Shown piece by piece: positions 6,952 through 63,872 of a stretch of 64,000 bases of DNA. Within the stretch, counting starts at the first letter, position 1. Each line of letters begins with the position of its first letter. The stretch is from Stegostoma tigrinum (taxonomy: Eukaryota), in the NCBI RefSeq assembly GCF_030684315.1, contig NC_081355.1, positions 82,298,924 through 82,362,923 of the forward strand, read 5' to 3'. The position numbers were made by a program, and so were the translations under genes. A model generated the notes under the pieces. That model was given only the letters and a program-made list of their open reading frames with translations. It was not told where the DNA came from and made no database searches.

Positions 6952-7156
6952 GTATGCAATTTTCATTTTTTTTTAAAGCATACTGTAATTATCAAACTAT
7001 TCCATCTTCCTCAAAGTCCAAAATACTATTATTTTTTGTTGTGGTTTCTTGTTCTGTTTACTATACAATGTAAGAAGTATTTAGATGTGCACTTGTGATA
7101 CCAAGGTATGTGAGGCTTTGAGACAAGCGCTAGAAAATGGGATTGGAATTATTAGA

Positions 7157-8281
7157 AAACAAAGTGTGGAGCTGGATGAACACAGCAGGCCAAGCAGCAT
7201 CTTAGGAGCACAAAAGCTGACGGTTCAGGCCTAGACCCTTTATCGGAAAAGGGGGATGGGGAGAGGGTTCTGAAATAAATAGAGGAAGCCGCAACGGGTA
7301 CAGCGGATGCAGTATACCACATTGGCAGATGTGCAGCATCCCCACCCTTGTCTGCCTTCCAGAGAGACCATTCTCTCCAGGACTCCCTTGTCCGTTCCAC
7401 ACTCCCCTCCAATCCCACCACCCCTGGCACTTTTCCCTGCAATGGCAGGAAGTGCTAAACTTGCCCCCACACCCCCTCCCTCACCCACATCCCAGGCCCC
7501 AAGATGACTTTCCACATCAAGCAGATGTTCACCTGCACATCTGCCAATGTGGTATACTGCATCTGCTGTACCCGGTGTGGCTTCATCTACATTGGGGAAA
7601 CCAGTGGATGCTTGGGGACCACATTGCAGAACCCCTCCGCTCGGTTCGCAATAAACAACTGCACCTCCCAGTCGTGAACCATTTCAACTCCCCCTCTCGT
7701 TCCTCAGACAACATGTCCATCATGGGCCTCCTGCAGTGCCACAATGATGCCACCCGAACATTGCAGGAACAGCAACTCATATTCCGTATGAGAACCCTGC
7801 AGCCCAATGGTAGCAATGTGGATTTCACAATCTCCCCTCCCCTTACTGCATCCCAAAACCAGCCCAGCTCATCCCTGCCTCCCTAACCTGTTCTTCTTCT
7901 CGCCTATCCCACCCTCCCACCTCAAGCCACACTCCCATTTCCTACCTACTAACCCGATTCTGCCCCCTTGACCTCTCCATCCTCCCCAGACGGACCTATC
8001 CCCTCCCTACCTCCCCACCTATACTCACCTCTACAGTCTCCATCCCCGCCCCTTTAACTTGTCTGTGTCCTCTCCACCTATCTTCTCCTCTATCCATCTT
8101 TGGTCCGCCTCACCCCTCTCCCTATTTATTTCAGAACCCTCTCCCCATCCCCCTTTTCTGATGAAGGGTCGAGGCCCGAAATGTCAGCTTTTGTGCTCCT
8201 GAAATGCAGCTTGGCCTGCTGTGTACATCCAGCTCCACACTTTGTTATCTCGGATTCTCCAGCATCTGCAGTTCCCACTAG
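7157..8281 (+). mobile_element. PLE copy with an internally deleted, inverted 5' arm (7157-7336), inserted in a CR1 tail
   Basis: GIY-YIG region (ANVVYCI-C-RCG-IYIGET) on +, hammerhead motif 8158-8185, tail ...gcatctgcagttcccacta; imperfect TSD gattggaattattaga (7141-7156) / gattgtaattagtaga (8286-8301). Confidence 0.9.
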
Positions 8282-9083
8282 GTCTGATTGTAATTAGTAG
8301 ACGCTTGTTTTTGACCAGCACAGATGTGATGGGCCTTTTTTGTGCTGTAGATCTCGATGACTCTTTGAGTATTACAATTTAACCTGTTTAATATCACCAG
8401 CCAGTTTTGTCTCATTTATTATTAGGTATATAAACTGTGTGGAAATAAGGAACATCGTGTTTTATGGTGATTGAATGATGAGCATAAGAAACTCTAGACT
8501 GAGAATTGCAAACATTACTGGAATTGAAATGAGCTCTTAAACGTACATGTTAGTTTCTGCAATGAAGACAAAGCTTCAGAGTGGTCACTTGAAGGGAGAA
8601 CAGTGCAGATTTGAGAGTTGCACTTGTTAGTTGCTGCACACTCACAGATATTATATTTAGAGCCTACATTTAGTTACATTGTTCCTGGGACATCCTTCAT
8701 TCCAAGCGAATATCCACAAGTTTTCCCGGACCACAATATGTCGCCTTTTCCTCAGCCGCCACTGGGAATTCGACACACTCTCACACCTTATTTGTCTCCC
8801 TTGCTGACTTATACTCTCCTCATTACCAGCGCAGGCTTGAGGGCCGAAGGACCTGTTCCTGTGCTGTAATTTTCTTTTTCTTTGTTCATTGCCCTGTACC
8901 AGACTCTCAATGACACTTTGATCATCCAATTTTCTGGGTATGTTTGGAAGCAAGTCCATGATTCCAATTAAAACTCTCTTTTCAAGAATGCACTGTACTG
9001 AGTCAATTGTTGCACTCAGAAGGTGAAAAGTGTAATGTTATGTAAAGTGGGCAAAGAAGTAAATGACGATTACTTAGTTTGTT

Positions 9084-11447: not shown

Positions 11448-12200
11448 CATGTTTTTAGATGTTCATGATCACAGTTAAGTAGTCGCTGGTTTGTAAGCAT
11501 TTTTCTAGTAGATTGTTGAGTCTGTTAAGACGTAGTAGCTTAAGCATGATACAGTTAGTTAAATAAAGAAAGTACAGTTAGTTCTGCTATAACGCATGTT
11601 TCATTAATGCGAATTGTCGGAATCCTTTTGGCCAATGGCCATGAGACAGCTACCCATGACATCAGATGATCATTGCCCCTTGCCTGCCCTCAACTATGGA
11701 TTTGTCAATTCTTTCCAAAACACACTGATAATCGGGTGCATTTGGTACAAGATAATTTGTTGATGCTAGTCTTGGGCTTCGTGGCCTTTGTGTTTTTCAT
11801 AATTCTTCCCTGTGTTTACATATGCTGGAGTTTTGGTAAGTTTGCACTGGTGTAAAAGTGGTCGCATGAAATCTCATGCTAAACAGTAAATACTACGACA
11901 GTTCAGTTATGAAGAGACCCCAGTATTCAACATCACAAACACATGGGATATCAATTGTAACTTGGGCAAGGGCCAGCATGGCACGGGTGAATACCTAATT
12001 GGAGGGATTTCATCATGAAGTTCGGGGCCAGATCAGCACGGATTAGGAGATCACCCTATTCGAAGATTTTGGAAAAGAGGGGAAGGTTGAAGATAGGCTT
12101 TGAGTTTATAAGGAGGAAGAGGTCAATGGTTCGTTTGAAGAAATGGGCATTGATGGCAGATTTGAAGAAAATATCAGTGAGAACACATAATGTAACTGCA

Positions 12201-12435
12201 ACAAAAATAGATATTGCTGGAAAAGCTCAGCAGGTCTGGCAGCATCTGTGAAGAGAAATTAGAGTTAATGTTTTGGGGCTGGTGATCATTCCTCAGAACT
12301 GTTCTGTGGAAGGGTAACTGGACCCGAAGCGTTAACTCTGATTTCTCTTCACAGATGCTGCCAGACTTGCTGAATTTTTCCAGTAATTTCTGTTTTTGTT
12401 TCAGATTTACAGCATCTGCAGTTCTTTTGGTTTTT
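12201..12435. mobile_element. Palindromic non-autonomous PLE mini-element, family 2 (head-to-head hammerhead-like motifs)
   Basis: Inverted arms centred at 12300 (cagaac-t-gttctg); extra tail on the right arm only; perfect 14-bp TSD ataatgtaactgca (12187-12200 / 12436-12449). Confidence 0.85.
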
Positions 12436-14866: not shown

Positions 14867-16076
14867 TGAGATAATGGGAACTGCAGATGCTGGAGAATCC
14901 AAGATAATAAAATGTGAGGCTGGATGAACACAGCAGGCCAAGCAGCATCTCAGGAGCACAAAAGCTGACGTTTCGGGCCTAGACCCTTCATCAGAGAGGG
15001 GGATTGGGTGAGGGATCTGGAATAAAGAGGGAGAGAGGGGGAGGCGGACCGAAGATGGAGAGAAAAGAAGAAAGGTGGAGAGAGTATAGGTGGGGAGCTA
15101 GGGAGGGGATAGGTCAGTCCAGGGAAGACGGACAGGTCAAGGAGGTGGGATGAGGTTAGTAGGTAGGAGATGGGGGTGCGGCTTGGGGTGGGAGGAAGGG
15201 ATGGGTGAGAGGAAGCACAGGTTAGGGAGGCAGAGACAGGTTGGACTGGTTTTGGGATGCAGTGGGTGGAGGGGAAGAGCTGGGCTGGTTGTGTGGTGCA
15301 GTGGGGGGAGGGGACGAAGTGGGCTTATTTAGGGATGCGGTGGGGGAAGGGGAGATTTTGAAGCTGGTGAAGTCCACATTGATACCATTAGGCTGCAGGG
15401 TTCCCAAGCGGAATATGAGTTGCTGTTCCTACAACCTTCGGGTGGCATCATTGTGGCATTGCAGGAGGCCCATGATGGACATGTCATCTAAAGAATGGGA
15501 GGGGGAGTGGAAATGGTTTGCGACTGGGAGGTGCAGTTGTTTGTTGCGAACCGAGCGGAGGTGTTCTGCAAAGCGGTCCCCAAGCCTCCGCTTGGTTTCC
15601 CCAATGTAGAGAAAGCCACACCGGATACAGTGGATGCAGTATACCACATTGGCAGATGTGCAGGTGAAACTCTGCTTAATGTGGAATGTCATCTTGGGGC
15701 CTGGGATAGGGGTGAGGGAGGAGGTGTGGGGGCAAGTGTAGCATTTCCTGCGGTTGCAGGGGAAGGTGCCGGGTGTGGTGGGGTTGGAGGGCAGTGTGGA
15801 GCGAACAAGGGAGTCACGGAGAGAGTGGTCTCTCTGGAAAGCAGACAGGGGTGGAGATGGAAAAATGTCTTGGGTGGTGGGGTCGGATTGTAGATGGCGG
15901 AAGTGTCGGAGGATGATGTGTTGTATCCGGAGGTTGGTGGGGTGGTGTGTGAGAACGAGGGGGATCCTCTTTGTGCGGTTGTGGCGGGGGTGGGGTGTGA
16001 GGGATGTGTTGCGGGAAGTGCGGGAGACGCGGTCAAGGGCGTTCTCGATCACTGTGGGGAGAAAGTTGCGGTCCTT
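14867..16076 (-). mobile_element. Young PLE, 5'-truncated, Neptune-type (Cys-rich linker + GIY-YIG)
   Basis: ORF 15429..16052 with PCNRRKCYTC linker and VVYCIHCIRCGFLYIGET; intact hammerhead motif 14967-14994; TSD gaaaatac (14859-14866 / 16077-16084). Confidence 0.92.
14967..14994 (-). ncRNA. Minimal type I hammerhead ribozyme motif in PLE pLTR
   Basis: Minus strand CTGATGA-A-GGGT(CTAG)GCCC-GAAA-CGTC: both conserved core boxes, stem II and a GUC triplet. Activity is not shown. Confidence 0.7.
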
Positions 16077-17119
16077 GAAAATACATGACAGGTTTAGATA
16101 GAGGATCTGGATTGGTACAGGCTTGGAGGTCCAAAGGGCCTGTTCCTGTGCTGTAATTTTCTTTGTTCTTAATTGAGAGACTCCACAATCATTTGCAAGG
16201 AATTTATTACCTTGGTGATTTCGAGTTATCCTGGTGCCCAGTTAGCTGTGTATGGTTTTGATAAAAGGCTCAAAACTAGTTTCACCTTTTAGTAGTGCTT
16301 CTACAAATGCTCCTTGCTTCAGAGCATCTTTCCCTACCTTTGCAGACCCTCACATCTCCTTTGTCGCCTCACTACTGTTTCCAACCTTGCTAGTCTCTCG
16401 CTCCCCTGATTCAGCTTCTTTTTTTCCTGGGGTCGTGCTTTAACCAACCCTCACCTCCTGTGCCTGCCCCATCCATTCAGTACCTTTCAACCCACATCAT
16501 CAGCTTTGTTTTTGTCAGCCATGTCTCTTGCTTCCATTCCACACTTGCTCTGACAGTGACAGCCTTGCTCCCGTTACTACGCCCACCTTTAATCACAAGC
16601 TGGCTCTAGTTCTCATCCATATTTGGGCTCTCTATGAATCTATTGGCAACAAATGTGAGAGAAACAGTGTATGAGTGGCGGAATGGTCGCTTAGGGAATT
16701 ATAACAATCCCACCTAAGTGGGTGATTTTTATCCCATTGAGCACTGTGAGGGAATTTTTCCAGGTTATTTGGGATTTTTCGAGGGCGAATTAGTCCACTG
16801 CCACTGTGTATTTTGAGCGCTATGGTGCAAGGTGTATTCAAGAAAAATATGTTATATTTTGTGACATAACAGGACCTTGTTTGTTCTGATCTAATCAAGA
16901 TAGTGAGTTTTTAAAGCTGGAGCTGGGATAGACAGATATGCTCCTGAAGATCATGGATGCTGTTGGACTTCAACACCTATCTCCATATTCTTTTCATCAG
17001 CAGTAATTGTGCATTCCCTAATTAACACAAATCTCTTGTCTGATTTGCTATAGCTCCTTGTCTACTCTCCCATGAACTCTCCTGATCACTAGTCACCGCT
17101 TCTCTTCCTTTGGTCACTA

Positions 17120-20266: not shown

Positions 20267-20426
20267 CAGAGATAATAGGAACTGCAGATGCTGGAGAATC
20301 CAAGACAACAAGGTGTAGAGCTGGATAAACACAGCCTTCCTGCTCCTAAGATGCTGCTAAGCTTTCCTGCTCCTAAGATGCTGCTTGGCCTGCTGTGTTC
20401 ATCCAGCTCTACACCTTGTTGTCTCT
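20267..20426. mobile_element. Palindromic PLE pLTR mini-element, family 1, with internal tandem duplication
   Basis: Tail on the left arm; TSD aaaatcctac(c/t)tt (20254-20266 / 20427-20439). Confidence 0.85.
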
Positions 20427-23129: not shown

Positions 23130-26100
23130 AAAGACTTGGGTATAGCATATTCACTTCCCTCACTTAAGTTATGAATATACACGTTGCAAATAATTGTGGC
23201 CCCAGCAGTGATCCCTGTGGCACAACACGAGCTGCTGGTTGCCATCCCAAAAATGCCCACCTTATCCCAACTCTGTCTTCTGTTAGATTGCCAGCTCTAC
23301 AAGCTAATAGTCTACTTCCAACATCATGGGTTCTTTTCTCATTAAGTAACCTATGTGTGGCACCTTATCAAATACCTTATGAAAATTCATCTATGTATCA
23401 TCCACCACTTCCTCTTTATATAACCTGATTGTTACCCCCTCAAAGAATTCTTCATAAATTCATGCTAATTCTGCATGATCATACTATGCATTTCTAAATG
23501 CTTTGTGATTTCATTCTTTATAATAAACTCAAGCATTTTTCCAATAACAGACATCAAGCTAATTGGTCAGTTGTTGCCTGTGTTTTGTTTGTCTCCTTTC
23601 TTTTTTAAATAAAAATATTTTATTGGCAGTTTTCCAGTCCTCTGGGACTTATCTAGAATCTAAGGACTTCTATAAGATTGCTATTCCTGTAGCTACTTCC
23701 TTTAATATTCTGGGATGCATTCCGTCAGGTTCAGGGACTGAGTATTCTTTATGAACACAGCAGGCCAAGCAGCAACTTAGGAGCAGGAAAACTGATGTTT
23801 TGGGCCTAGACCCTTCATCAGAAATGGGGGAGGGGAAGAGGGTTCTGAAATAAATAGGGAGAGAAGGGGAGGCGGATCGAAGATGGAAAGAGGATAATAT
23901 AAGTGGAGAGGAGACAGACAAGTTAAAAAGGTGGGGATGGAGCCAGTGAAGGTGAGTGTAGGTGGGGAAGAATGGAGGAGATAGGTCAGTCCGGAGAGGA
24001 CGGACAGGTCAAGGGGGCAGGATGAGGTTAACAGGTAGGAAATGGGGGTGCAGCTTGAGGTGGGAGAAAGTGATAGATGAGAGGAAGTACAACTTAGGGA
24101 GGCGGGGATGAGCTAGGCCGGTTTTGTGATGTGGTAGGGGGAGGGGAGATTTTGAAGCTTGTGAAATCCACATTGATCCCATTAGGCTGCAGGGTTCCCA
24201 AGTGGAATATGAGTTGCTGTTCCTGCAACCTTTGGGTGGCATCATGCCCACCGGCCTGACCAGTCCCCCTCGACTGACACCCTCATCTGCTTAGCCAAAC
24301 TCATCCTCACCCTCAACAACCTCTCTTTCAATTCCTCCCACTTCCTACAGACAAAGGGGGTGGGCATGGGTACCTGCATGGGCCCAAGCTATGCCTACCT
24401 CTTTGTAGGTTACATGGAACAATCCCTCTTTTACACCTACACTGGCCCTAAACCCCACCTCTTCCTCTGTTACATTGATGACTGTATCGGCACCGCCTCG
24501 TGCTCCCACGAGGAGCTCGAACAGTTCATCCACTTCACCAACACCTTTCACCCCAACCTCAAGTTCACCTGGACCATCTCTAACACCTCCCTCACCTTCC
24601 TGGACCTCTCTATCTCCATCTCGGGCAACCACCTAGAAACCTACATCCATTTCAAGCCCACTGACTCCCATAGCTACCTAGAACACACCTGCTTCCAAAT
24701 ACATTCCTGCAAAAATTCCACCCCCTATTCCCAATTACTTCGCCTCTGCCACACCTGCTCCCAGGATGAGGCATTCCATTCCCGTACATCTCAGATGTCC
24801 TTGTTTTTCAAGGACCGCAACTTCCCCCCCCTCAGTTGTCGAGAACGCCCTCGACCGTGTTTCCCACATTTCCTGCAACTCATCCCTCACAATCCCACAC
24901 TGTCCCTACAATAACAACCAAAAAAAATCCCCCTCGTCCTCACATACCCCTCCACCAACCTCCGGATCCAACGCATCATTCTCCGACACTTCCGCCATCT
25001 GCAATCCAACCGCACCATCAAAGACACTTTTCCCTCCTCACCCTTGTCTGCTTTCCAGAGGAACCATTCTCCCCGTGACTCCCTTGTCCGCTCTACACTC
25101 CCTTCCAGCGCCAACACACCTGGCATTTTTCCCTGCAACTGCAGGAAGTGCTACACTTGTCCCCACACCTCCTCCCTCACCCCCATCCCACGCCCCAAGA
25201 AGACTTTCCACATCTAGCAGAGGTTCACCTGCACATCTGCCAATGTGGTATACTGCATCCGCTGTTCCCGTTGTGGCCTCCTCTACATTGTGGAAACCAA
25301 GGGGAGGTTTGGGGACCGCTTTGCAGAACACCTCCGCTTGGCTTGCAATAAACAACTGTACCTCCCAGTCATGAACCATTTCAACGACCCCTCCATTCGT
25401 CAGATGACATGTCAATCCTTGGCCTCCTGCAGTGCCACAACGATGCCACCTGAAGGTTGCAGGAACAGCAACTGTTATTCTGCTTGGGAACCCTGCAGTC
25501 CAATGGTGTCAATGTGGATTTCACAAGCTTCAAATTCTCCCCTCCCCCTATCACATCACAAACCAGTCTAGCTCTGCCCTGCCTCCCTAGGCTGTTCTTC
25601 CTCTCATCTATCCTCTCCTCCCACCTCAACCCACACCCCTATTTCTTACCTACTAACCTCATCCCGCCCCCTTGACCTCTCCGTCCTCTCTGGACTGACC
25701 TATCCCCTCCCTACCTCCCCACCTACGCTCACCTTTACTGGCTCTATCCCCGCCTCTTTAACTTGTCTGTCTCCTCTCCACTTATCTTCTCTATCCATCT
25801 TCAATCCACCTCACCCCTCCCCCCTCCCCCTATTTATTTCAGAACCCACTTCCTCTCCCCCATTTCTGATGAAGGGTCTAGGTCCGAAACGTCAGCTTTT
25901 GTGCTCCTGAGATGCTGCTTGGCCTGCTGTGTTCATCCAGCTCCACACTTTGTTATCTCAGATTCTCTAGCATCTGCAGTTTCTATTATCACTGAGTAGT
26001 CTTTGCCCTGTTTTAGTATACCTAGCTGTTTTTTCTCTGGTGATAATGATTTGAATTTATTTCTTGTGCTATTATGCTTTGAATATTTAGTCATTTTTGA

Positions 26101-27402: not shown

Positions 27403-27578
27403 ACGCAGTGTGGAGCTAGAGGAACACAGCAGACCAGGCAGCATCAGAGGAGCAGGAATGCTGACAGTTTGGATAAGAACCCTCGGCAGCTTTCCTGCTC
27501 TTCTGATGCTGCCTGGCCTGCTGTGTTCCTCCAGCTCCACACCTTGTTACCTTAGGCTCCAGTATTGGCAGTTCTTAC
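27403..27578. mobile_element. Palindromic PLE pLTR mini-element, family 1
   Basis: Inverted arms gtggagct-gaggaacacagcag-ccaggcagcatcaga; TSD tatcct(c/g)tctgata (27389-27402 / 27579-27592). Confidence 0.8.
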
Positions 27579-32740: not shown

Positions 32741-32894
32741 GTAGAAAAACAATCCATCAGCTTTTCTTTCCATTGTTGCCAAAAGCCAGATAAGAAATCT
32801 CAAGGTGTTTCTAGGTTGATATACAATGTCATGTTGCACTGAGTCATTTTGATCAGGATGATTATAGGATCAAACCCACTACTGAGGTAACAAG

Positions 32895-33150
32895 TAAAAA
32901 CAGAAACTGCGAGAGAAATGCAACAGGTCTGGCAACATCTGTGGAGAGCCTTCTGAAAAAGGTCCTGTTAATTCTTGTTTCTCTCTCCAAAACTACTGAA
33001 GAAACTGAGCAAGTCAGGAGAGAGAAGCAAGGATTAACGTGACCATTTGTCAAAAGGTTCTCCACAGATGTTGCCAGACCTGCTGAGTTTCTTGAGCAAT
33101 TTCTGATCTTGTTTGTTTCAGATCTCCAGTGACCGCAGTTCTTTTTTTTA
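32895..33150. mobile_element. Degenerate palindromic PLE mini-element, family 2
   Basis: caggtctggcaacatctgtggaga / tctccacagatgttgccagacctg arms; tail like 12201-12435. Confidence 0.7.
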
Positions 33151-35404: not shown

Positions 35405-35644
35405 TAAAAACTGAAAGAACTGTGGACACCGTCAGTTAGAAACAAAAACTGACATTGCTGGAAAAGCTCAGCAGGCCTGGCAGCATCTGTGAAGAAAAGA
35501 TCAGAGATAACATTTCGGGTCTGGTGAGCCTTCCTGAGAATTCACTGTTCTCACGAAAGGTCACTGGACTTGAAACGTTAACTTTGATTTCTTTTTTCAC
35601 AGATGTTGCCAGACCTGCTGAGCTTTGCCAGCAATGTCAGTTTT
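35405..35644. mobile_element. Palindromic PLE mini-element, family 2
   Basis: aaaactgacattgctgg...gcatctgtgaa and its reverse complement; hammerhead-like aaggtcactggacttGAAAcgtt near 35550-35580. Confidence 0.8.
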
Positions 35645-48970: not shown

Positions 48971-49664
48971 CCCTCCCAGTCGCACAATAAACAACTGCAC
49001 CTCCCAGTCGCAAACCATTTCCACTCCCCCTCCCATTCTTTAGATGACATGTCCATCATGGGCCTCCTGCAGTGCCTCAATGATGCCACCCGAAGGTTGC
49101 AGGAACAGCAACTCATATTCCGCTTGGGAACCCTGCAGCCCAATGGTATCAATGTGGACTTTACCAGCTTCAAAATCTCCCCTTCCCCCACCGCATCCCA
49201 AAACCAGTCCAGCTCGTCCCCTCCCCCCACTGCACCACACAACCAGCCCAGCTCTTCCCCTCCACCCACTGCACCCCAAAACCAGTCCAACCTGTCTCTG
49301 CTTCCCTAACCTGTTCTTCCTCTCACCCATCCCTTCCTCCCACCCCAAGCCGCACCTCCATCTCCTACCTACTAACCTCATCCCACCTCCTTGACCTGTC
49401 TGTCTTCCTTGGACTGACCTATCCCCTCCTTACCTCCCCACCTATACTCTCCTCTCCACCTATCTTCTTTTCTCTCCATCTTCGGTCAGCCTCCCCCTCT
49501 CTCCCTATTTATTCCAGAACCCTCACCCCATCCCCCTCTCTGATGAAGGGTCTAGGCCCGAAATGTCAGCTTTTGTGCTCCTGAGATGCTGCTTGGCCTG
49601 CTGTGTTCATCCAGCCTCACATTTTATTATCTTGGATTCTCCAGCATCTGCAGTTCCCATTATC
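48971..49664 (+). mobile_element. Young PLE 3' fragment
   Basis: ORF 48920..49309 (HLPVANHFHSPSHSLDDMSIMGL); hammerhead 49540-49567; perfect 15-bp TSD actgctaacgttttg (48956-48970 / 49665-49679). Confidence 0.92.
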
Positions 49665-54925: not shown

Positions 54926-54997
54926 GGGGAGCCTGGTAAAAGGGGACCCAGTGGCTTTTTTGGACATCCTGGACCAACTGGACCTGCTGGCGCTAAG
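54926..54997 (+). CDS. COL28A1: Collagen XXVIII-like exon (GEPGKRGPSGFFGHPGPTGPAGAK)
   Basis: ctatttttcAG / GTgatt; 72 bp, phase 0, perfect Gly-X-Y. Confidence 0.85.
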
Positions 54998-55445: not shown

Positions 55446-56119
55446 ATTTTAGTTAGCTGATTATATATTAAATTCCCTTTAGGAATAATAGTTGCATCAT
55501 TGACTTAAATGGCAAGAAAATAATTTGCAATATTCACCTGAATTTTCATTATGTGACCTGATGGGTTTGGTTCCACCTAAGAGCATGAAGTTAGATAATG
55601 ATTTTGGGATTATTTTTAATTTTTGAAAAGGTATTAAAAGATAAGGTGTTAATTGTGACCACTGTTGTGCTTCATTTCCATGATTGGTCATTGAACATAT
55701 GCTGTTGGCATAAAACATCAGAAGGCCATATTTGAATATCAGGTGGGGAGGATTATGCACATCTGCAGCTCAGCTGATGCATCCTCATTGACAAAAGAAA
55801 ATGTAGGATTGCCTAACTGGTGTACCATATTCTGACTTGAGAGCAGAGAAGCAAGAAGCATATCCCGCAATGTTCTTTAGTTTAGCTTACAGTTCTCTCT
55901 GCCTATTAACACTATCATTGCAGCAGTAGTTGCCATGCTGATTAGTTGATGAATGGAGTTTGGGCAGGGAAAAGAACAAAGATGAACACGTACTCTTACG
56001 TAGCTCTGGGAAACTTAATCATAGAATTGAAGAATGATACTGAAAGGAGCAGTTATCATATCTGTGATGTCTAAAGAACAATTGAAGTTATTCCCTGAAA
56101 GAAACTCACTGGGAAGTTT

Positions 56120-56325
56120 CAGAGGTAGTAGGAACAGCAGATGCTGGAGAATCTGAGATAACAAGATGTAGAACTGGATGAACACAGCAGGCCAAGCAGC
56201 ATCAGAGGAGCAGGAAGACTGACGTTTGGTTCAAAAGAAGGTTCTAGGCCCAAAACATCAGCCTTCCTGCTCCTATGATGCTGCTTGGCCTGCTGTGTTC
56301 ATCCAGCTCTACATCTTGTTATCTA
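56120..56325. mobile_element. Palindromic PLE pLTR mini-element, family 1
   Basis: Inverted arms meet within the hammerhead region (about 56220-56260); tail on the left arm; imperfect TSD actgggaagttt / actgagaaggtt. Confidence 0.85.
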
Positions 56326-57046
56326 ACTGAGAAGGTTTTTTAGTTGTATTAAAGGGAGTTGAAATCAAAGATAACGTTTTAGCACTTCTGCTTAAATACA
56401 GAGCTAATGTGCTACCCATTGCCATGGAGATGCGGGTAGAGGAAGCCATTTTGAAATAAGGTTACAGGCTTCCCTAAATATCCAGGAATGTTTCTACAGT
56501 TGCAGTTTTTTCTTGTGCTATCAGTAATCAATTGAAACGTAGAGCAAGAGATCAGCAAGGCCTGCACTTTAAGCAGAGAAAATGTCGTTTTTATCATTTA
56601 CCACACAGACGGCAGATAGGAACTCACATTCATGTTGAAGACTAAGTTCATGAAGAGTTAAGGAAAGCTGGAAGATTTGCCTATCAAGTGCAACTGTCAC
56701 ATTGAGAAGTGGTTCTGGGATGAAAAGTTACTCACACAGGAAATAAAAAGGAAGCAAAAAATAGGAGTCTGGGAGCAACTGTGAATTGGGTGTGACAGTT
56801 TTGTAATTCCATCAAGAGTGTGCTATGTGTTAAGTAAAAAAGCTATGTTTAAAGAATGCTATGAAATATATCCACAAAAATAGAATAATGTTTCATGGTT
56901 AGTTTTTCTATTCACTTGTTACAATGAAGGTTTAAGATGTGGTACGTCAACATTTTATTCTTTCAACTATGAAACAGAAGTTCAAATTTCACTTTAAAAG
57001 TAATCAGCCTCAATGGAGATTTGTAAGAAAATGGATCTTGCAGGAA

Positions 57047-57181
57047 TGACCGTCTGATGAAGGGTCTAAGCCCGAAACGTCAGCTTTTGTGCTCCCGAGA
57101 TGCTGCTTGGCCTGCTGTGTTCATCCAGCCTCACATTTTATTATCTTGGAATTCTCCAGCATCTGCAGTTCCCATTATCTC
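57047..57181 (+). mobile_element. Solo PLE hammerhead mini-insertion (135 bp)
   Basis: CTGATGAagggtctaagcccGAAAcgtc at 57054-57081; perfect 14-bp TSD ggatcttgcaggaa (57033-57046 / 57182-57195). Confidence 0.9.
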
Positions 57182-57485
57182 GGATCTTGCAGGAAGTCTG
57201 GCACAGGGCTTGCATAACTAAGTGAATACTAAAATTGCACTTGGGGACTGGAAAAAAAGCAGATGTACTCCTATCTTTTCCAAAAGTAGGAAAGCGATCT
57301 GGAAAACCACAGGGCAATGAATTTGATGTCCATTGTATGTTAAGCTATGGAAACCCCTGTTAAAGATAAGGTCATTGTACATCTGGATTGAAATAAAATT
57401 ATAAAGAAAAGCCATGTGAGGTTTGAAAATTAAGCAACATAGTTTGTCTGAGTAGAGTAATGGAAAGTGGGGCAGTGAAATGTTA

Positions 57486-60433
57486 ATAAAATGTGAGGCT
57501 GGATGAACACAGCAGGCCAAGCAGCATCTCAGGAGCACAAAAGCTGATGTTTCGGGCCTGGACCCTTCATCAGAGAGGGGGATGGGGAGAGGGAACTGGA
57601 ATAAATAGGGAGAGAGGGGGAGGCGGACCGAAGATGGAGAGTAAAGAAGATAGGTGGAGAGAGTATAGGTGGGGAGGTAGGGAGGGGATAGGTCAGTCCA
57701 GGGAAGACGGACAGGTCAAGGAGGTGGGATGAGGTTAGTAGGTAGATGGGGGTGCGGCTTGGGGTGGGAGGAAGGGATGGGTGAGAGGAAGAATCGGTTA
57801 GGGAGGCAAAGACAGGTTGGACTGGTTTTGGGATGCAGTGGGTGGGGGGGAAGAGCTGGGCTGGTTGTGTGGTGCAGTGGTGGGGGGGGTGACGAACTGG
57901 GCTGGTTTAGGGATGCAGTAGGGGAAGGGGAGATTTTGAAACTGGTGAAGTCCACATTGATACCATTAGGCTGCAGGGTTCCCAGGCGGAATATGAGTTG
58001 CTGTTCCTGCAACCTTCGGGTGGCATCATTGTGGCAGTGCAGGAGGCCCATGATGGACATGTCATCTAGAGAATGGGAGGGGGAGTGGAAATGGTTTGCG
58101 ACTGGGAGGTGCAGTTGTTTATTGGGAATCGAGCGTAGGTGTTCTGCAAAGCGGTCTCCAAGCCTCCGCTTGGTTTCCCCAATGTAGAGGAAGCCACACC
58201 GGGTACAGTGGATGCAGTATACCACATTGGCAGATGTGCAGGTGAACCTCTGCTTAATGTGGAATGTCATCTTAGGGCCTGGGATAGGGGTGAGGGAGGA
58301 GGTGTGGGGGCAAGTGTAGCATTTCCTGCAGTTGCAGGGGAAGGTGCCGGGTGTGGTGGGGTTGGAGGGCAGTGTGGAGCGAACAAGGGAGTCATGGAGA
58401 GAGTGGTCTCTCCGGAAAGCAGACAGGGGTGGGGATGGAAAAATCTCTTGGGTGGTGGGGTCGGATTGTAAATGGCGAAAGTGTCGGAGGATGATGCGTT
58501 GTGACCAGAGGTTGGTAGGGTGGTGTGTGAGAACGAGGGGGATCCTCTTTGGGCGGTTGTGGCGGGGGCGGGGTGTGAGGGATGTGTTGCGGGAAATATG
58601 GGAGACGCGGTCAAGGGCGTTCTCGATCACTGTGGGGGGAAAGTTGCGGTCCTTGAAGAACTTGGACATCTGGGATGTGCGGGAGTGGAATGTCTTATCA
58701 TGGGAGCAGATGCGGCGGAGGCGGAGGAATTGGGATTAGGGGATGGAATTTTTGCAGGAGGGTGGGTGGGAGGAGGTGTATTCTAGGTAGCTGTGGGAGT
58801 CGGTGGGCTTGAAATGGACATCAGTTACAAGCTGGTTGCCTGAGATGGAGACTGAGAGGTCCAGGAAGGTGAGGGATGTGCTGGAGATGGCCCAGGTGAA
58901 CTGAAGGTTGGGGTGGAAGGTGTTGGTGAAGTGGATGAACAGTTCATCCACTTCACCAACACCTTCCACCCCAACCTTCAGTTCACCTGGGCCATCTCCA
59001 GCACATCCCTCACCTTCCTGGACCTCTCAGTCTCCATCTCAGGCAACCAGCTTGTAACTGATGTCCATTTCAAGCCCACCGACTCCCACAGCTACCTAGA
59101 ATACACCTCCTCCCACCCACCCTCCTGCAAAAATTCCATCCCCTATTCCCAATTCCTCCACCTCCGCCGCATCTGCTCCCACGATAAGACATGCCACTCC
59201 CACACATCCCAGATGTCCAAGTTCTTTAAGGACCGCAACGTTCCCCCCACAGTGATCGAGAACGCCCTTGACCGCGTCTCCCGTATTTCCCGCAACACAT
59301 CCCTCACACCCCGCCCCCGCCACAACCGCCCAAAGAGGATCCCCCTCGTTCTCACACACCACCCTACCAACCTCCGGGTACAACGCATCATCCTCCGACA
59401 CTTTCGCCATTTACAATCCGACCCCACCACCCAAGACATTTTTCCATCCCCACCCCTGTCAGCTTTCCGGAGAGACCACTCTCTCCGTGACTCCCTTGTT
59501 CGCTCCACACTGCCCTCCAACCCCACCACACCCGGCACCTTCCCCTGCAACAACAGGAAATGCTACACTTGCCCCCACACCTCCTCCCTCACCCCTATCC
59601 CAGGCCCCAAGATGACATTCCACATTAAGCAGAGGTTCACCTGCACATCTGCCAATGTGGTATACTGCATCCACTGTACCCGGTGCGGCTTCCTCTACAT
59701 TGGGGAAACCAAGCGGAGGCTTGGAGACCGCTTTGCAGAACACCTCCGCTCAGTTCGCAACAAACAACTGCACCTCCCAGTCGCAAACCATTTCCACTCC
59801 CCCTCCCATTCTCTAGATGACATGTCCATCATGGGCCTCCTGCACTGCCACAATGATGCCACCCGAAGGTTGCAGGAACAGCAACTCATATTCCGCCTGG
59901 GAACCCTGCAGCCTAATGGTATCAATGTGGACTTCACCAGTTTCAAAATCTCCCCTTCCCCTACTGCATCCCTAAACCAACCCATTTCGTCCCCTCCCCC
60001 CAATGCACCACACAACCAGCCCAGCTCTTTCCCCCCCCACCCACTGCATCCCAAAACCAGTCCAACCTGTCTCTGCCTCCCTAACCGGTTCTTCCTCTCA
60101 CCCATCCCTTCCTCCCACCCCAAACCGCACCCCCATCTACCTACTAACCTCATCCCACCTCCTTGACCTGTCCATCTTCCCTGGACTGACCTATCCCCTC
60201 CCTACCTCCCCACCTATACTCTCTCCACCTATCTTCTTTACTCTCTATCTTCGGTCCGCCTCCCCCTCTCTCCCTATTTATTCCAGTTCCCTCTCCCCAT
60301 CCCCCTCTGTGATGAAGGGTCCAGGCCCGAAACGTCAGCTTTTGTGCTCCTGAGATGCTGCTTGGCCTGCTGTGTTCATCCAACCTCACATTTTATTATC
60401 TTGGAATTCTCCAGCATCTGCAGTTCCCATTAT
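57486..60433. mobile_element. Fold-back (palindromic) young Neptune-type PLE insertion; arms 57486-58940 (-) and 58942-60433 (+)
   Basis: Mirror ORFs 57716..58669(-) and 58913..60166(+) encode the RT C-terminus, Cys linker and GIY-YIG; 1-nt spacer at 58941; perfect 13-bp TSD cagtgaaatgtta (57473-57485 / 60434-60446). Confidence 0.95.
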
Positions 60434-60994
60434 CAGTGAAATGTTACATGGTTTTAAAAAATCACTGAAACTGAAAGAAAATCTAAAACACAATTGTGAG
60501 ACCAGCCTCATATATAGTATAGAAACTTAGGCAATGCCAAGAAGAGAGGAAGAATGATTGGACACTAATAAATTGCAGATGCTGAGAAAAATAAGAAAAT
60601 ACACAATCAGGAGCCATTACATCAGGGGCTCAGCGGAAATTGTGTTAATGTCAAACAAAGTAGCCAAGAAAAGATTAAAAAGATGTGATCATTTATTGTG
60701 GAGTGAGAGGGGAAATGTGGTGATGTGAGTGATTGGGTCGTGCTACTGTGAAGAAGGAGAAGATAAAGGCCCAAGACTGATAGAAAGATTGAGTGGTGAC
60801 AGCTTGGAAAATGAATCGATGACTGACTAGAGCAAGGGAAATCATTCAGCATTGTGTCAACTCCACCTCCCAAAAAAATGGGTAAAGCTGAAAGAAGAAC
60901 AAAAGAAGAGTTCATAAAAGGAAGGCCTTGCCAATTTAGCTTACTCATTTTCTTTAATAGGATAACAAAGGATTTTGATAGTGCTAAGGCAGTA

Positions 60995-63320: not shown

Positions 63321-63548
63321 AACTGTATGTGCAGAGAGTATAATACCAGAAAATGAAAATATTTTATGTATTACTATACAAGCCAACAGTTAAACCATAA
63401 TACAGTGGAATACTGTGGACAGTTTAGGCCTCTCACCTAAGAAAAGGTATAATGGCATTGGAGACAATCCAGAAGACATTCTCTCTGATACCAGATATGA
63501 CTTATAACATCAATCAATGCAAATATCAAGGAACACCATAATTTTGCA

Positions 63549-63770
63549 GATAACAAAGTGTGGAGCTAGAGGAACACAGCAGGTCAGGCAGCATCAGTGG
63601 AACAGGAGAGCTGACGTTTCAGGTCGGGACCCTTATTCAGAAATTTCTGAAGAAAGGTCCCGATCCGAAATGTCAGCTTTCCTGTTCCTCTGATGCTGCC
63701 TGGCCTGCTGTGTTCCTCCATCTCCACACTTTGTTATCTCTGACTCCAGCATTTCCAGTTCTTGCTTTCT
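63549..63770. mobile_element. Palindromic PLE mini-element, family 1, with head-to-head hammerhead motifs
   Basis: Apex ttcagaaa|tttctgaa at 63643/63644; tail on the right arm; degenerate TSD caccataattttgca / cacaataactttgta. Confidence 0.88.
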
Positions 63771-63803
63771 CACAATAACTTTGTATACTTTATTCAATTT
63801 CAG

Positions 63804-63872
63804 GGAGAACCTGGGCTCCGTGGTGAGGTTGGTTTACCAGGGCCAGTAGGAAAAGGATTTCCAGGACCAAAG
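63804..63872 (+). CDS. COL28A1: Collagen XXVIII-like exon (GEPGLRGEVGLPGPVGKGFPGPK)
   Basis: ttcaatttcAG / GTaaat; 69 bp, phase 0. Confidence 0.85.

What the first reader, a model, noticed from the sequence alone, without database searches (positions are those of the whole stretch)
57486..60433. 2.95-kb near-perfect fold-back Penelope palindrome with a 1-nt spacer inside a collagen intron
Seen: arms of about 1.45 kb mirror each other around base 58941 and are enclosed by one perfect 13-bp TSD, so this is a single insertion event. The arms differ at scattered positions (e.g. NLWSQ vs NLRVQ, RNFP vs RNVP), which argues against a read or assembly fold-back artefact. Established: long spacer-less palindromes are unstable, and when transcribed they give long dsRNA. 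Inference: host transcription makes a hairpin covering the RT C-terminus, GIY-YIG and pLTR, a possible endo-siRNA source that silences the family, and a strong ADAR substrate.
Basis: partly seen in the sequence, partly recalled or inferred. Interest (0 to 1): 0.75.

Follow-up and report, generated by a model that had tools for sequence, protein, structure and literature searches.

The report
Long head-to-head Penelope-like retrotransposon insertion
This 2.95-kb DNA mirror in a collagen intron is a dead, fairly young insertion of a very common Penelope-like jumping gene in a back-to-back layout already described for this class, unusual only in its long equal arms, which were likely copied from one RNA at both sides of the DNA cut.

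Summary
Two 1,455-bp arms mirror around 58941, with 36 substitutions and two 2-bp indels, a 13-bp TSD, and a 37-nt tail on the right arm only, inside an intron of a + strand collagen gene. It is a 5'-truncated, non-autonomous Penelope-like element of Neptune/Nematis type. [quoted passage not shown] is the published layout (PMC8557442, PMC3846280). This window holds 7 such head-to-head inserts, 2 of them symmetric. The "1-nt spacer" is the element's own GAAC-A-GTTC micro-palindrome. A related species appears to lack the insert. No laid contig bridged the apex, so the exact apex is unverified. Favoured mechanism (0.5): both target ends primed one RNA and the two cDNA ends annealed at the micro-palindrome; cDNA snap-back is the rival (0.3). 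The intron RNA would fold into a long hairpin, but siRNA and editing are untested, and siRNA from inverted Penelope copies is already published (PMC3681739). The scan noted this layout many times on other DNA, including a 3.2-kb case in this genome.

The parts
57473..57485 (+). left copy of 13-bp target-site duplication
   Evidence: exact match to 60434-60446; only two copies in the window
57486..58940 (-). left arm: tail-less 5'-truncated element copy (RT C-terminal part, thumb, zinc-finger linker, GIY-YIG, 3' UTR, pLTR); one in-frame stop at 58736
58937..58945 (.). apex: native GAAC-A-GTTC micro-palindrome of the element, giving a 4-nt microhomology junction; centre 58941
   Evidence: same 9-mer in ordinary copy 24519-24527 with a different upstream sequence; native upstream letters in read contigs
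58942..60396 (+). right arm: 5'-truncated copy, open frame 58943-60163, starting about 13 codons after the RT YIDD motif, so no catalytic RT
60308..60340 (+). hammerhead-like core in the pLTR (motif recalled; the first C of the core is G in this arm); mirror copy near 57542-57574
   Evidence: seen in sequence; no Rfam hammerhead hit among 37 matches; not the minimum-energy fold
60397..60433 (+). one-sided 37-nt tail (35 nt if the shared TA is counted as arm)
   Evidence: matches the 30-40-bp tail of PMC8557442
60434..60446 (+). right copy of 13-bp target-site duplication
   Evidence: contig of organism B starts matching exactly here
54926..54997 (+). upstream collagen exon (Gly-X-Y, AG/GT)
63804..63872 (+). 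downstream collagen exon (Gly-X-Y, AG/GT)

Best explanation
It is one non-autonomous head-to-head insertion of an endonuclease-bearing Penelope-like retrotransposon, bounded by a 13-bp target duplication, whose two arms were likely made by priming reverse transcription of one RNA from both strands of the cut target and then joining the two cDNA ends at a native 9-base micro-palindrome. Steps: (1, inferred from the TSD) the GIY-YIG nuclease made a 13-nt staggered cut; (2, inferred; shown in vitro only for the anole element) each 3' end primed cDNA synthesis, one at the tail end and one about 37 nt upstream, which leaves the one-sided tail; (3, inferred) both cDNAs stopped at nearly the same place because they shared one template; (4, junction shown, annealing inferred) their ends paired through GAAC/GTTC and were filled in; (5, shown) the arms have since gathered private, mostly transition changes. 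It most likely has no host function. The intron RNA would form a long hairpin as a by-product.
For: Layout matches published PLE inserts: inverted 5'-truncated copy and 30-40-bp tail at one end (PMC8557442 passages); palindromes at inverted junctions and TSDs (PMC3846280 passages and Discussion). The anole PLE protein cleaves and extends both strands and starts at two sites that bound the tail; a dimer is predicted (PMC11167929 main text). In the window 7 of 7 head-to-head inserts carry the tail on exactly one arm. In 3 of 7 the tailed arm is the shorter, which plain snap-back cannot make; 2 are equal and in 2 the tailed arm is longer. Tail-less ends also occur in 4 single, non-inverted copies inspected, so that site is a priming site. 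The arms are closer to each other (2.5%) than to any of 7 other window copies (3.2-18.7%) and share 10 bases that no other covering copy has: one template or a very close one. The apex sits on one of only 6 stems of 4 bp or more with spacer 0-3 in 1,497 nt. Two cDNA ends pair at -6.6 kcal/mol, whereas the self-hairpin is +0.4. Contigs of organism B (X5, X7) match the right flank from exactly 60434 and run on for 1,029-1,030 other letters, the length predicted within 1-2 nt for an empty site.
Against: At this locus snap-back fits equally well: equal arms come free with it, and the central base is the one it predicts. Short tailed arms elsewhere could come from later deletion at the apex. In 2 of 7 inserts the tailed arm is much longer, against a strict leading/trailing order on one RNA. 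The left arm ends 3-5 nt short of the commonest tail-less end, about 60401. The identical inner 204 bp (P=0.004) suggests later homogenisation or assembly polishing near the apex, so the apex may not be the original junction. The right-junction contig has only 20 letters on the element side, below the tool's 31-letter bar. The unlike part of the B contig was not itself laid on the left flank.
Confidence: 0.5

Rival explanations
1. Snap-back: one tailed cDNA stalled at the micro-palindrome, folded on itself and copied itself back; the second arm was then cut or stopped near the tail boundary and joined to the other target end.
For: Explains equal arms, shared private bases, the apex on a native stem and the central base at once. 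Self-priming was proposed for junction palindromes in PMC3846280 (on an antisense template). Endonuclease resolution was proposed for the tail in PMC8557442.
Against: The self-hairpin is only 3 bp plus a 3-nt loop, +0.4 kcal/mol. It needs a separate reason to stop next to a known RT start site. It cannot make the 3 of 7 window inserts whose tail-less arm reaches further 5' unless they were later deleted.
Confidence: 0.3
2. The insertion is real but the perfect core or the exact 1-nt apex is secondary: gene conversion or hairpin repair homogenised the inner arms, or the assembly collapsed or polished the centre.
For: The inner 204 bp have no mismatch (P=0.004).
Against: The apex falls on a rare native micro-palindrome (6 such sites in 1,497 nt), as a biological junction would. 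A 219-bp mismatch-free stretch also occurs mid-arm (P about 0.1). A second symmetric apex lies at 63643.
Confidence: 0.12
3. Functional hairpin locus: the collagen pre-mRNA hairpin is diced into endo-siRNAs that repress the family, or is kept as an ADAR substrate.
For: Predicted 1,425-bp hairpin. In transgenic D. melanogaster, siRNAs mapped to the inverted parts of rearranged Penelope copies (PMC3681739 passages).
Against: The same review says these siRNAs did not silence Penelope efficiently. The family is extremely abundant (summed contig depth over the element is millions against tens in the flank; not a copy number) and the same gene holds many inverted pairs, so one locus would add little. 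Arm changes look neutral (transitions, CpG), and the insert appears absent in the related species. From my own knowledge, intron RNA is nuclear and short-lived and vertebrate somatic Dicer handles long dsRNA poorly.
Confidence: 0.06
4. Two independent RNAs, or two separate insertions, that happened to end at the same base; or a foldback DNA transposon.
For: The 2.5% arm divergence could in part reflect two templates.
Against: One TSD encloses both arms. Matching 5' ends within a few bases of 1.5-kb arms is unlikely by chance. The arms share 10 private bases. The arms encode RT and GIY-YIG, not a transposase.
Confidence: 0.02

Closest known systems
Endonuclease-bearing Penelope-like elements with an adjacent inverted 5'-truncated copy, one-sided tail and TSD (PMC8557442 Fig. 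2 legend and passages; Adineta vaga Pen2a, PMC3846280)
   Same: RT then C-terminal GIY-YIG, pLTR ends facing outward, head-to-head junction with a palindrome, 30-40-bp tail at one end, TSD around the unit
   Different: Arms are long (1.45 kb), equal, and meet with no spacer; in the passages read, the inverted part is usually a short pLTR
Neptune/Nematis clades of PLEs (PMC8557442 passages)
   Same: CX2-5CxxC zinc finger in the RT-EN linker and CCHH in the nuclease
   Different: Neptune versus Nematis not resolved; no reference tree was built
Poseidon of Anolis carolinensis, PAc (PMC11167929 main text)
   Same: Tail bounded by two RT start sites; both strands cut and extended in vitro; only 1-2 nt of primer-template match at our junctions
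   Different: Different clade (no linker zinc finger); the text read does not address how inverted copies form
L1 twin priming (recalled, no paper read)
   Same: Both target ends prime cDNA on one RNA and the products join by microhomology within one TSD
   Different: In L1 the second primer anneals internally, so the inverted and direct parts do not overlap; here both arms cover the same 3' sequence
Inverted Penelope copies as siRNA sources in Drosophila (PMC3681739 passages)
   Same: Long inverted repeat of Penelope sequence able to give dsRNA
   Different: Shown in flies; nothing measured here

Membership tests
EN+ Penelope-like element | Single ORF with RT followed by C-terminal GIY-YIG nuclease with CCHH | tested here: met
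   GIY-YIG hit E 9e-4 and 2e-3, below the curated cut-off; 52 hits among 1,490 longer candidates, e.g. P0002 53% identical with RVT_1 + GIY-YIG; C..C..H..H residues aligned
EN+ Penelope-like element | RT falls in the PLE/telomerase branch of an RT tree | not tested
   arms lack most of the RT; no named reference set was at hand
EN+ Penelope-like element | pLTR with optional 30-40-bp tail at one end | tested here: met
   37-nt tail on one arm; tailed and tail-less ends across window copies
EN+ Penelope-like element | Inverted 5'-truncated copy at the 5' end, unit bounded by a TSD | tested here: met
EN+ Penelope-like element | Hammerhead ribozyme motif in the pLTR | tested here: inconclusive
   core-like motif seen by eye; no hammerhead among 37 Rfam matches; folds of 5 copies not better than shuffles
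Neptune/Nematis clades | CX2-5CxxC zinc finger in the RT-EN linker | tested here: met
   C-X4-C-X2-C before GIY-YIG in both arms; definition from PMC8557442
Neptune/Nematis clades | Placement in the clade by RT phylogeny | not tested
   no named references
Penelope/Poseidon clade (strict 'Penelope') | No linker zinc finger | tested here: not met
   linker zinc finger present
Hairpin endo-siRNA locus | Transcript folds into long dsRNA | tested here: inconclusive
   fold predicted; transcription not measured
Hairpin endo-siRNA locus | 21-23-nt RNAs from both arms, Dicer-dependent | not testable with these tools
   no small-RNA data at hand
Foldback/MITE DNA transposon | Terminal inverted repeats flush with the TSD, transposase-type origin | tested here: not met
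   one-sided tail; RT/GIY-YIG coding

The most novel reading that the evidence does not exclude
Long symmetric inserts like this record the unsolved second half of the Penelope cycle: a dimeric RT-nuclease primes both strands of a staggered cut on the same RNA at the two tail-bounding start sites, and the two cDNA ends are joined by annealing at native micro-palindromes. PLEs would then routinely seed kilobase spacer-less palindromes that can persist in a vertebrate germ line. I did not find this model in print in my searches (listings only for 44); earlier notes of this scan propose it.
Probability: 0.45. Interest if true: 0.5.

Novelty: new member of a known kind. Interest (0 to 1): 0.22.

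Why it matters
As an object it is ordinary: one of many head-to-head PLE inserts. Its value is as a long, dated example. It has 1.45-kb arms with enough sites to test whether both arms came from one template, a junction on a native micro-palindrome, and a probable empty site in a related species. The arm divergence (2.5%) is about 0.41 of the flank divergence between the two species (6.0%), so a nearly spacer-less kilobase palindrome seems to have persisted a long time despite the known instability of such structures (PMC7999016 passages). If the apex is confirmed, it bears on how PLEs complete insertion and on how palindromes survive.

Tried and rejected
No whole genome is held, so no family-wide count could be made. 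Sequencing-run search: no RNA holder listed, which is no evidence on expression. Apex in read contigs: of 1,149 (X1) and 917 (X3) records laid on 58909-58973, the 8 listed per run were native pieces of 37 nt and none bridged the apex. This is inconclusive: the tool filters records, and hairpin dropout and graph cleaning are possible (my knowledge). Small steps in summed depth near the apex were considered as a hint of bridging pieces and dropped, since 1-nt gaps in other copies explain them. Rfam: 36 of 37 matches are miRNA-precursor models on the perfect hairpin and one is a lncRNA model, all below gathering score; rejected as generic. A suspected G>A excess on the element's sense strand (deamination of single-stranded cDNA) was not significant (p=0.24 and 0.25). 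No A>G excess in the arms (2 of 296 and 1 of 290 A sites), which says nothing on editing of the RNA. Whole-arm read fold-back artefact rejected: distinct flanks, TSD, tail and private changes on both arms. Literature search for this clade in sharks gave one unrelated paper (listing only); the twin-priming search gave two papers that look unrelated (listing only). No supplements were read; those of PMC11167929 (Fig. S1-S2) may bear on start-site positions. Collagen type not determined (the interrupted 69-nt exons recall COL28A1; recalled, untested).

Full report
Observation. The repeat finder gives inverted arms 57882-58940/58942-60000 and 57484-57855/60027-60398, both 97% complementary, 1 nt apart at the centre. 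A global alignment shows 36 substitutions (23 transitions, 13 transversions, 10 CpG-type) and two 2-bp indels over 1,455 sites, and an exact 13-bp direct repeat at 57473 and 60434 found nowhere else in the window. The right arm carries 37 more bases (60397-60433) that the left lacks. Gly-X-Y exons with AG/GT sites run along the + strand; the nearest are 54926-54997 and 63804-63872 and my scans found none between them, so the insert is intronic.

What it is. The right arm has an open frame of 407 residues with a weak GIY-YIG hit (E 9e-4, below the curated cut-off). It matches 52 longer proteins among 1,490 candidates, several with RT and GIY-YIG domains; one from Chiloscyllium punctatum is 65% identical over 54% of the query, which suggests a shark host. 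The arms begin about 13 codons after the RT YIDD motif, judged from the longer copy at 24246-25990 and the alignment, so the insert cannot encode an active RT. A C-X4-C-X2-C motif precedes the nuclease. By the passages read in PMC8557442 this marks Neptune/Nematis, not Penelope/Poseidon; no tree was built. The family is very abundant: 29 blast pieces in the window, and summed contig depth in the millions over the element against tens in the flank (not a copy number).

The layout is the family's habit. Seven inserts in the window are head-to-head: 7152-8285, 20267-20426, 23751-25990, 27403-27578, 56117-56325, this one and 63547-63774. Each has a candidate TSD of 9-14 bp (exact here, one mismatch in the others) and a tail on exactly one arm. 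Two of the 7 have a symmetric apex. [quoted passage not shown] PMC3846280 describes inverted pLTRs with TSD and tail, and palindromes at the inverted junction (passages and Discussion). Earlier notes of this scan list many such cases, among them a 3.2-kb and a 1.15-kb palindrome in this genome (unchecked AI notes).

The apex. In an ordinary copy the element reads through GAAC-A-GTTC, and read contigs show the same native context. The '1-nt spacer' is therefore a 4-nt microhomology junction on a native quasi-palindrome. Stems of 4 bp or more with spacer 0-3 occur at only 6 places in 1,497 nt, so the join was sequence-directed. The inner 204 bp are identical, which random placement of 36 changes gives with P=0.004; conversion or polishing is possible. 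No laid contig bridged the apex, an inconclusive result, so the exact apex rests on the assembly alone.

Real insertion and age. Against 7 other window copies, 15 differences are left-arm changes, 18 right-arm and 3 unresolved; both arms share 10 bases that no other covering copy has; each arm is 2.5% from the other and 3.2-18.7% from the rest. In run X1 one contig covers 60414-61206 with no difference, though only 20 letters lie on the element side. In both organism-B runs laid (X5, X7; two studies) a 1,796/1,797-nt contig matches 60434-61199 with 46 differences in 767, starts exactly at the TSD and goes on for about 1,030 other letters. If this insert and the solo pLTR at 57047-57181 are both absent there, the contig should end at 56294-56295; the neighbouring repeat predicts a break at 56296. 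This is a strong but indirect sign of an empty site. Arm divergence is 0.41 of flank divergence, consistent with identical arms at birth after the species split.

Mechanism. PMC11167929 (main text) shows that an anole PLE protein cuts and extends both strands, starts at two RNA sites that bound the tail, needs no homology to the target, and is predicted to be a dimer. Double priming on one RNA explains the TSD, the one-sided tail, sister arms, matched 5' ends and the join: two cDNA ends pair at -6.6 kcal/mol, while a self-hairpin is +0.4. Tail-less ends occur in 4 single copies inspected. In 3 of 7 inserts the tailed arm is the shorter, which snap-back cannot make. Against this: snap-back fits this locus fully, later apex deletion could explain short tailed arms, 2 of 7 inserts have a much longer tailed arm, and our tail-less end is 3-5 nt short of the commonest end. 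I give 0.5 to double priming, 0.3 to snap-back and 0.12 to a secondary or mis-assembled apex. I had read earlier notes favouring double priming before running the arm-length test.

Function. The + strand RNA is predicted to fold into one hairpin with 1,425 pairs and a 3-nt loop; 9 of the 36 differences become G-U pairs. Nothing was measured on expression, small RNAs or editing. siRNA from inverted Penelope copies is reported in Drosophila, and was there not able to silence the element efficiently (PMC3681739 passages). The same pre-mRNA holds many other inverted pairs, for example 812 nt at 95% between 15268-16079 and 59225-60036. A dedicated silencing role is unlikely (0.06). Palindrome instability rises with arm length and identity and falls with spacer length (PMC7999016 passages); 2.5% divergence may now dampen it, though the core is still perfect.

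Verdict. A real, new member of a known kind, at the long and symmetric end of its range. Interest 0.22.

Noticed in passing
window 57033-57195: Solo tailed pLTR (57047-57181) with an exact 14-bp TSD, about 300 bp left of the palindrome and 3-4% from its arms; contig-length arithmetic suggests it too is absent in organism B.
   Followed up: partly
window 63547-63774: Second symmetric head-to-head insert (apex at 63643, no spacer, at the pLTR 5' end) that ends 29 nt before the collagen exon at 63804, next to the splice acceptor.
   Followed up: partly
window 60400-60435 (read contigs): Opposite-strand joints 60400->60434 and 60401->60435 in 36+25 contigs (X1) and 37+22 (X3), none in X5 or X7: a tail-less end meets a tailed end, likely new copies landing in the family's own pLTR at the tail boundary.
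   Followed up: no
window 7152-8285: Head-to-head insert whose left arm jumps from the nuclease region to the pLTR (about 570 nt missing): an internal deletion or a template jump.
   Followed up: no
window 23737-26004: Head-to-head insert with unequal arms (0.5 and 1.75 kb), a 14-bp TSD with one mismatch, and the only window copy seen to reach the RT YIDD motif.
   Followed up: partly
window 20267-20426 and 48971-48985: Short duplications of element sequence at the 5' junctions of two inserts, suggestive of primer realignment.
   Followed up: no
window 60309 and 57548: Each arm has a change in the hammerhead-like core; in the right arm it corresponds to C3G, which abolished cleavage of the anole ribozyme in PMC11167929.
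   Followed up: no
window 4185-63872: Collagen gene on the + strand with 69-72-nt exons carrying regular Gly-X-Gly interruptions; type not determined.
   Followed up: partly
window 12200-12390, 32893-33103, 35441-35638: A second, more distant family of short repeats with similar terminal motifs (families D17 and D20), possibly another pLTR family.
   Followed up: no
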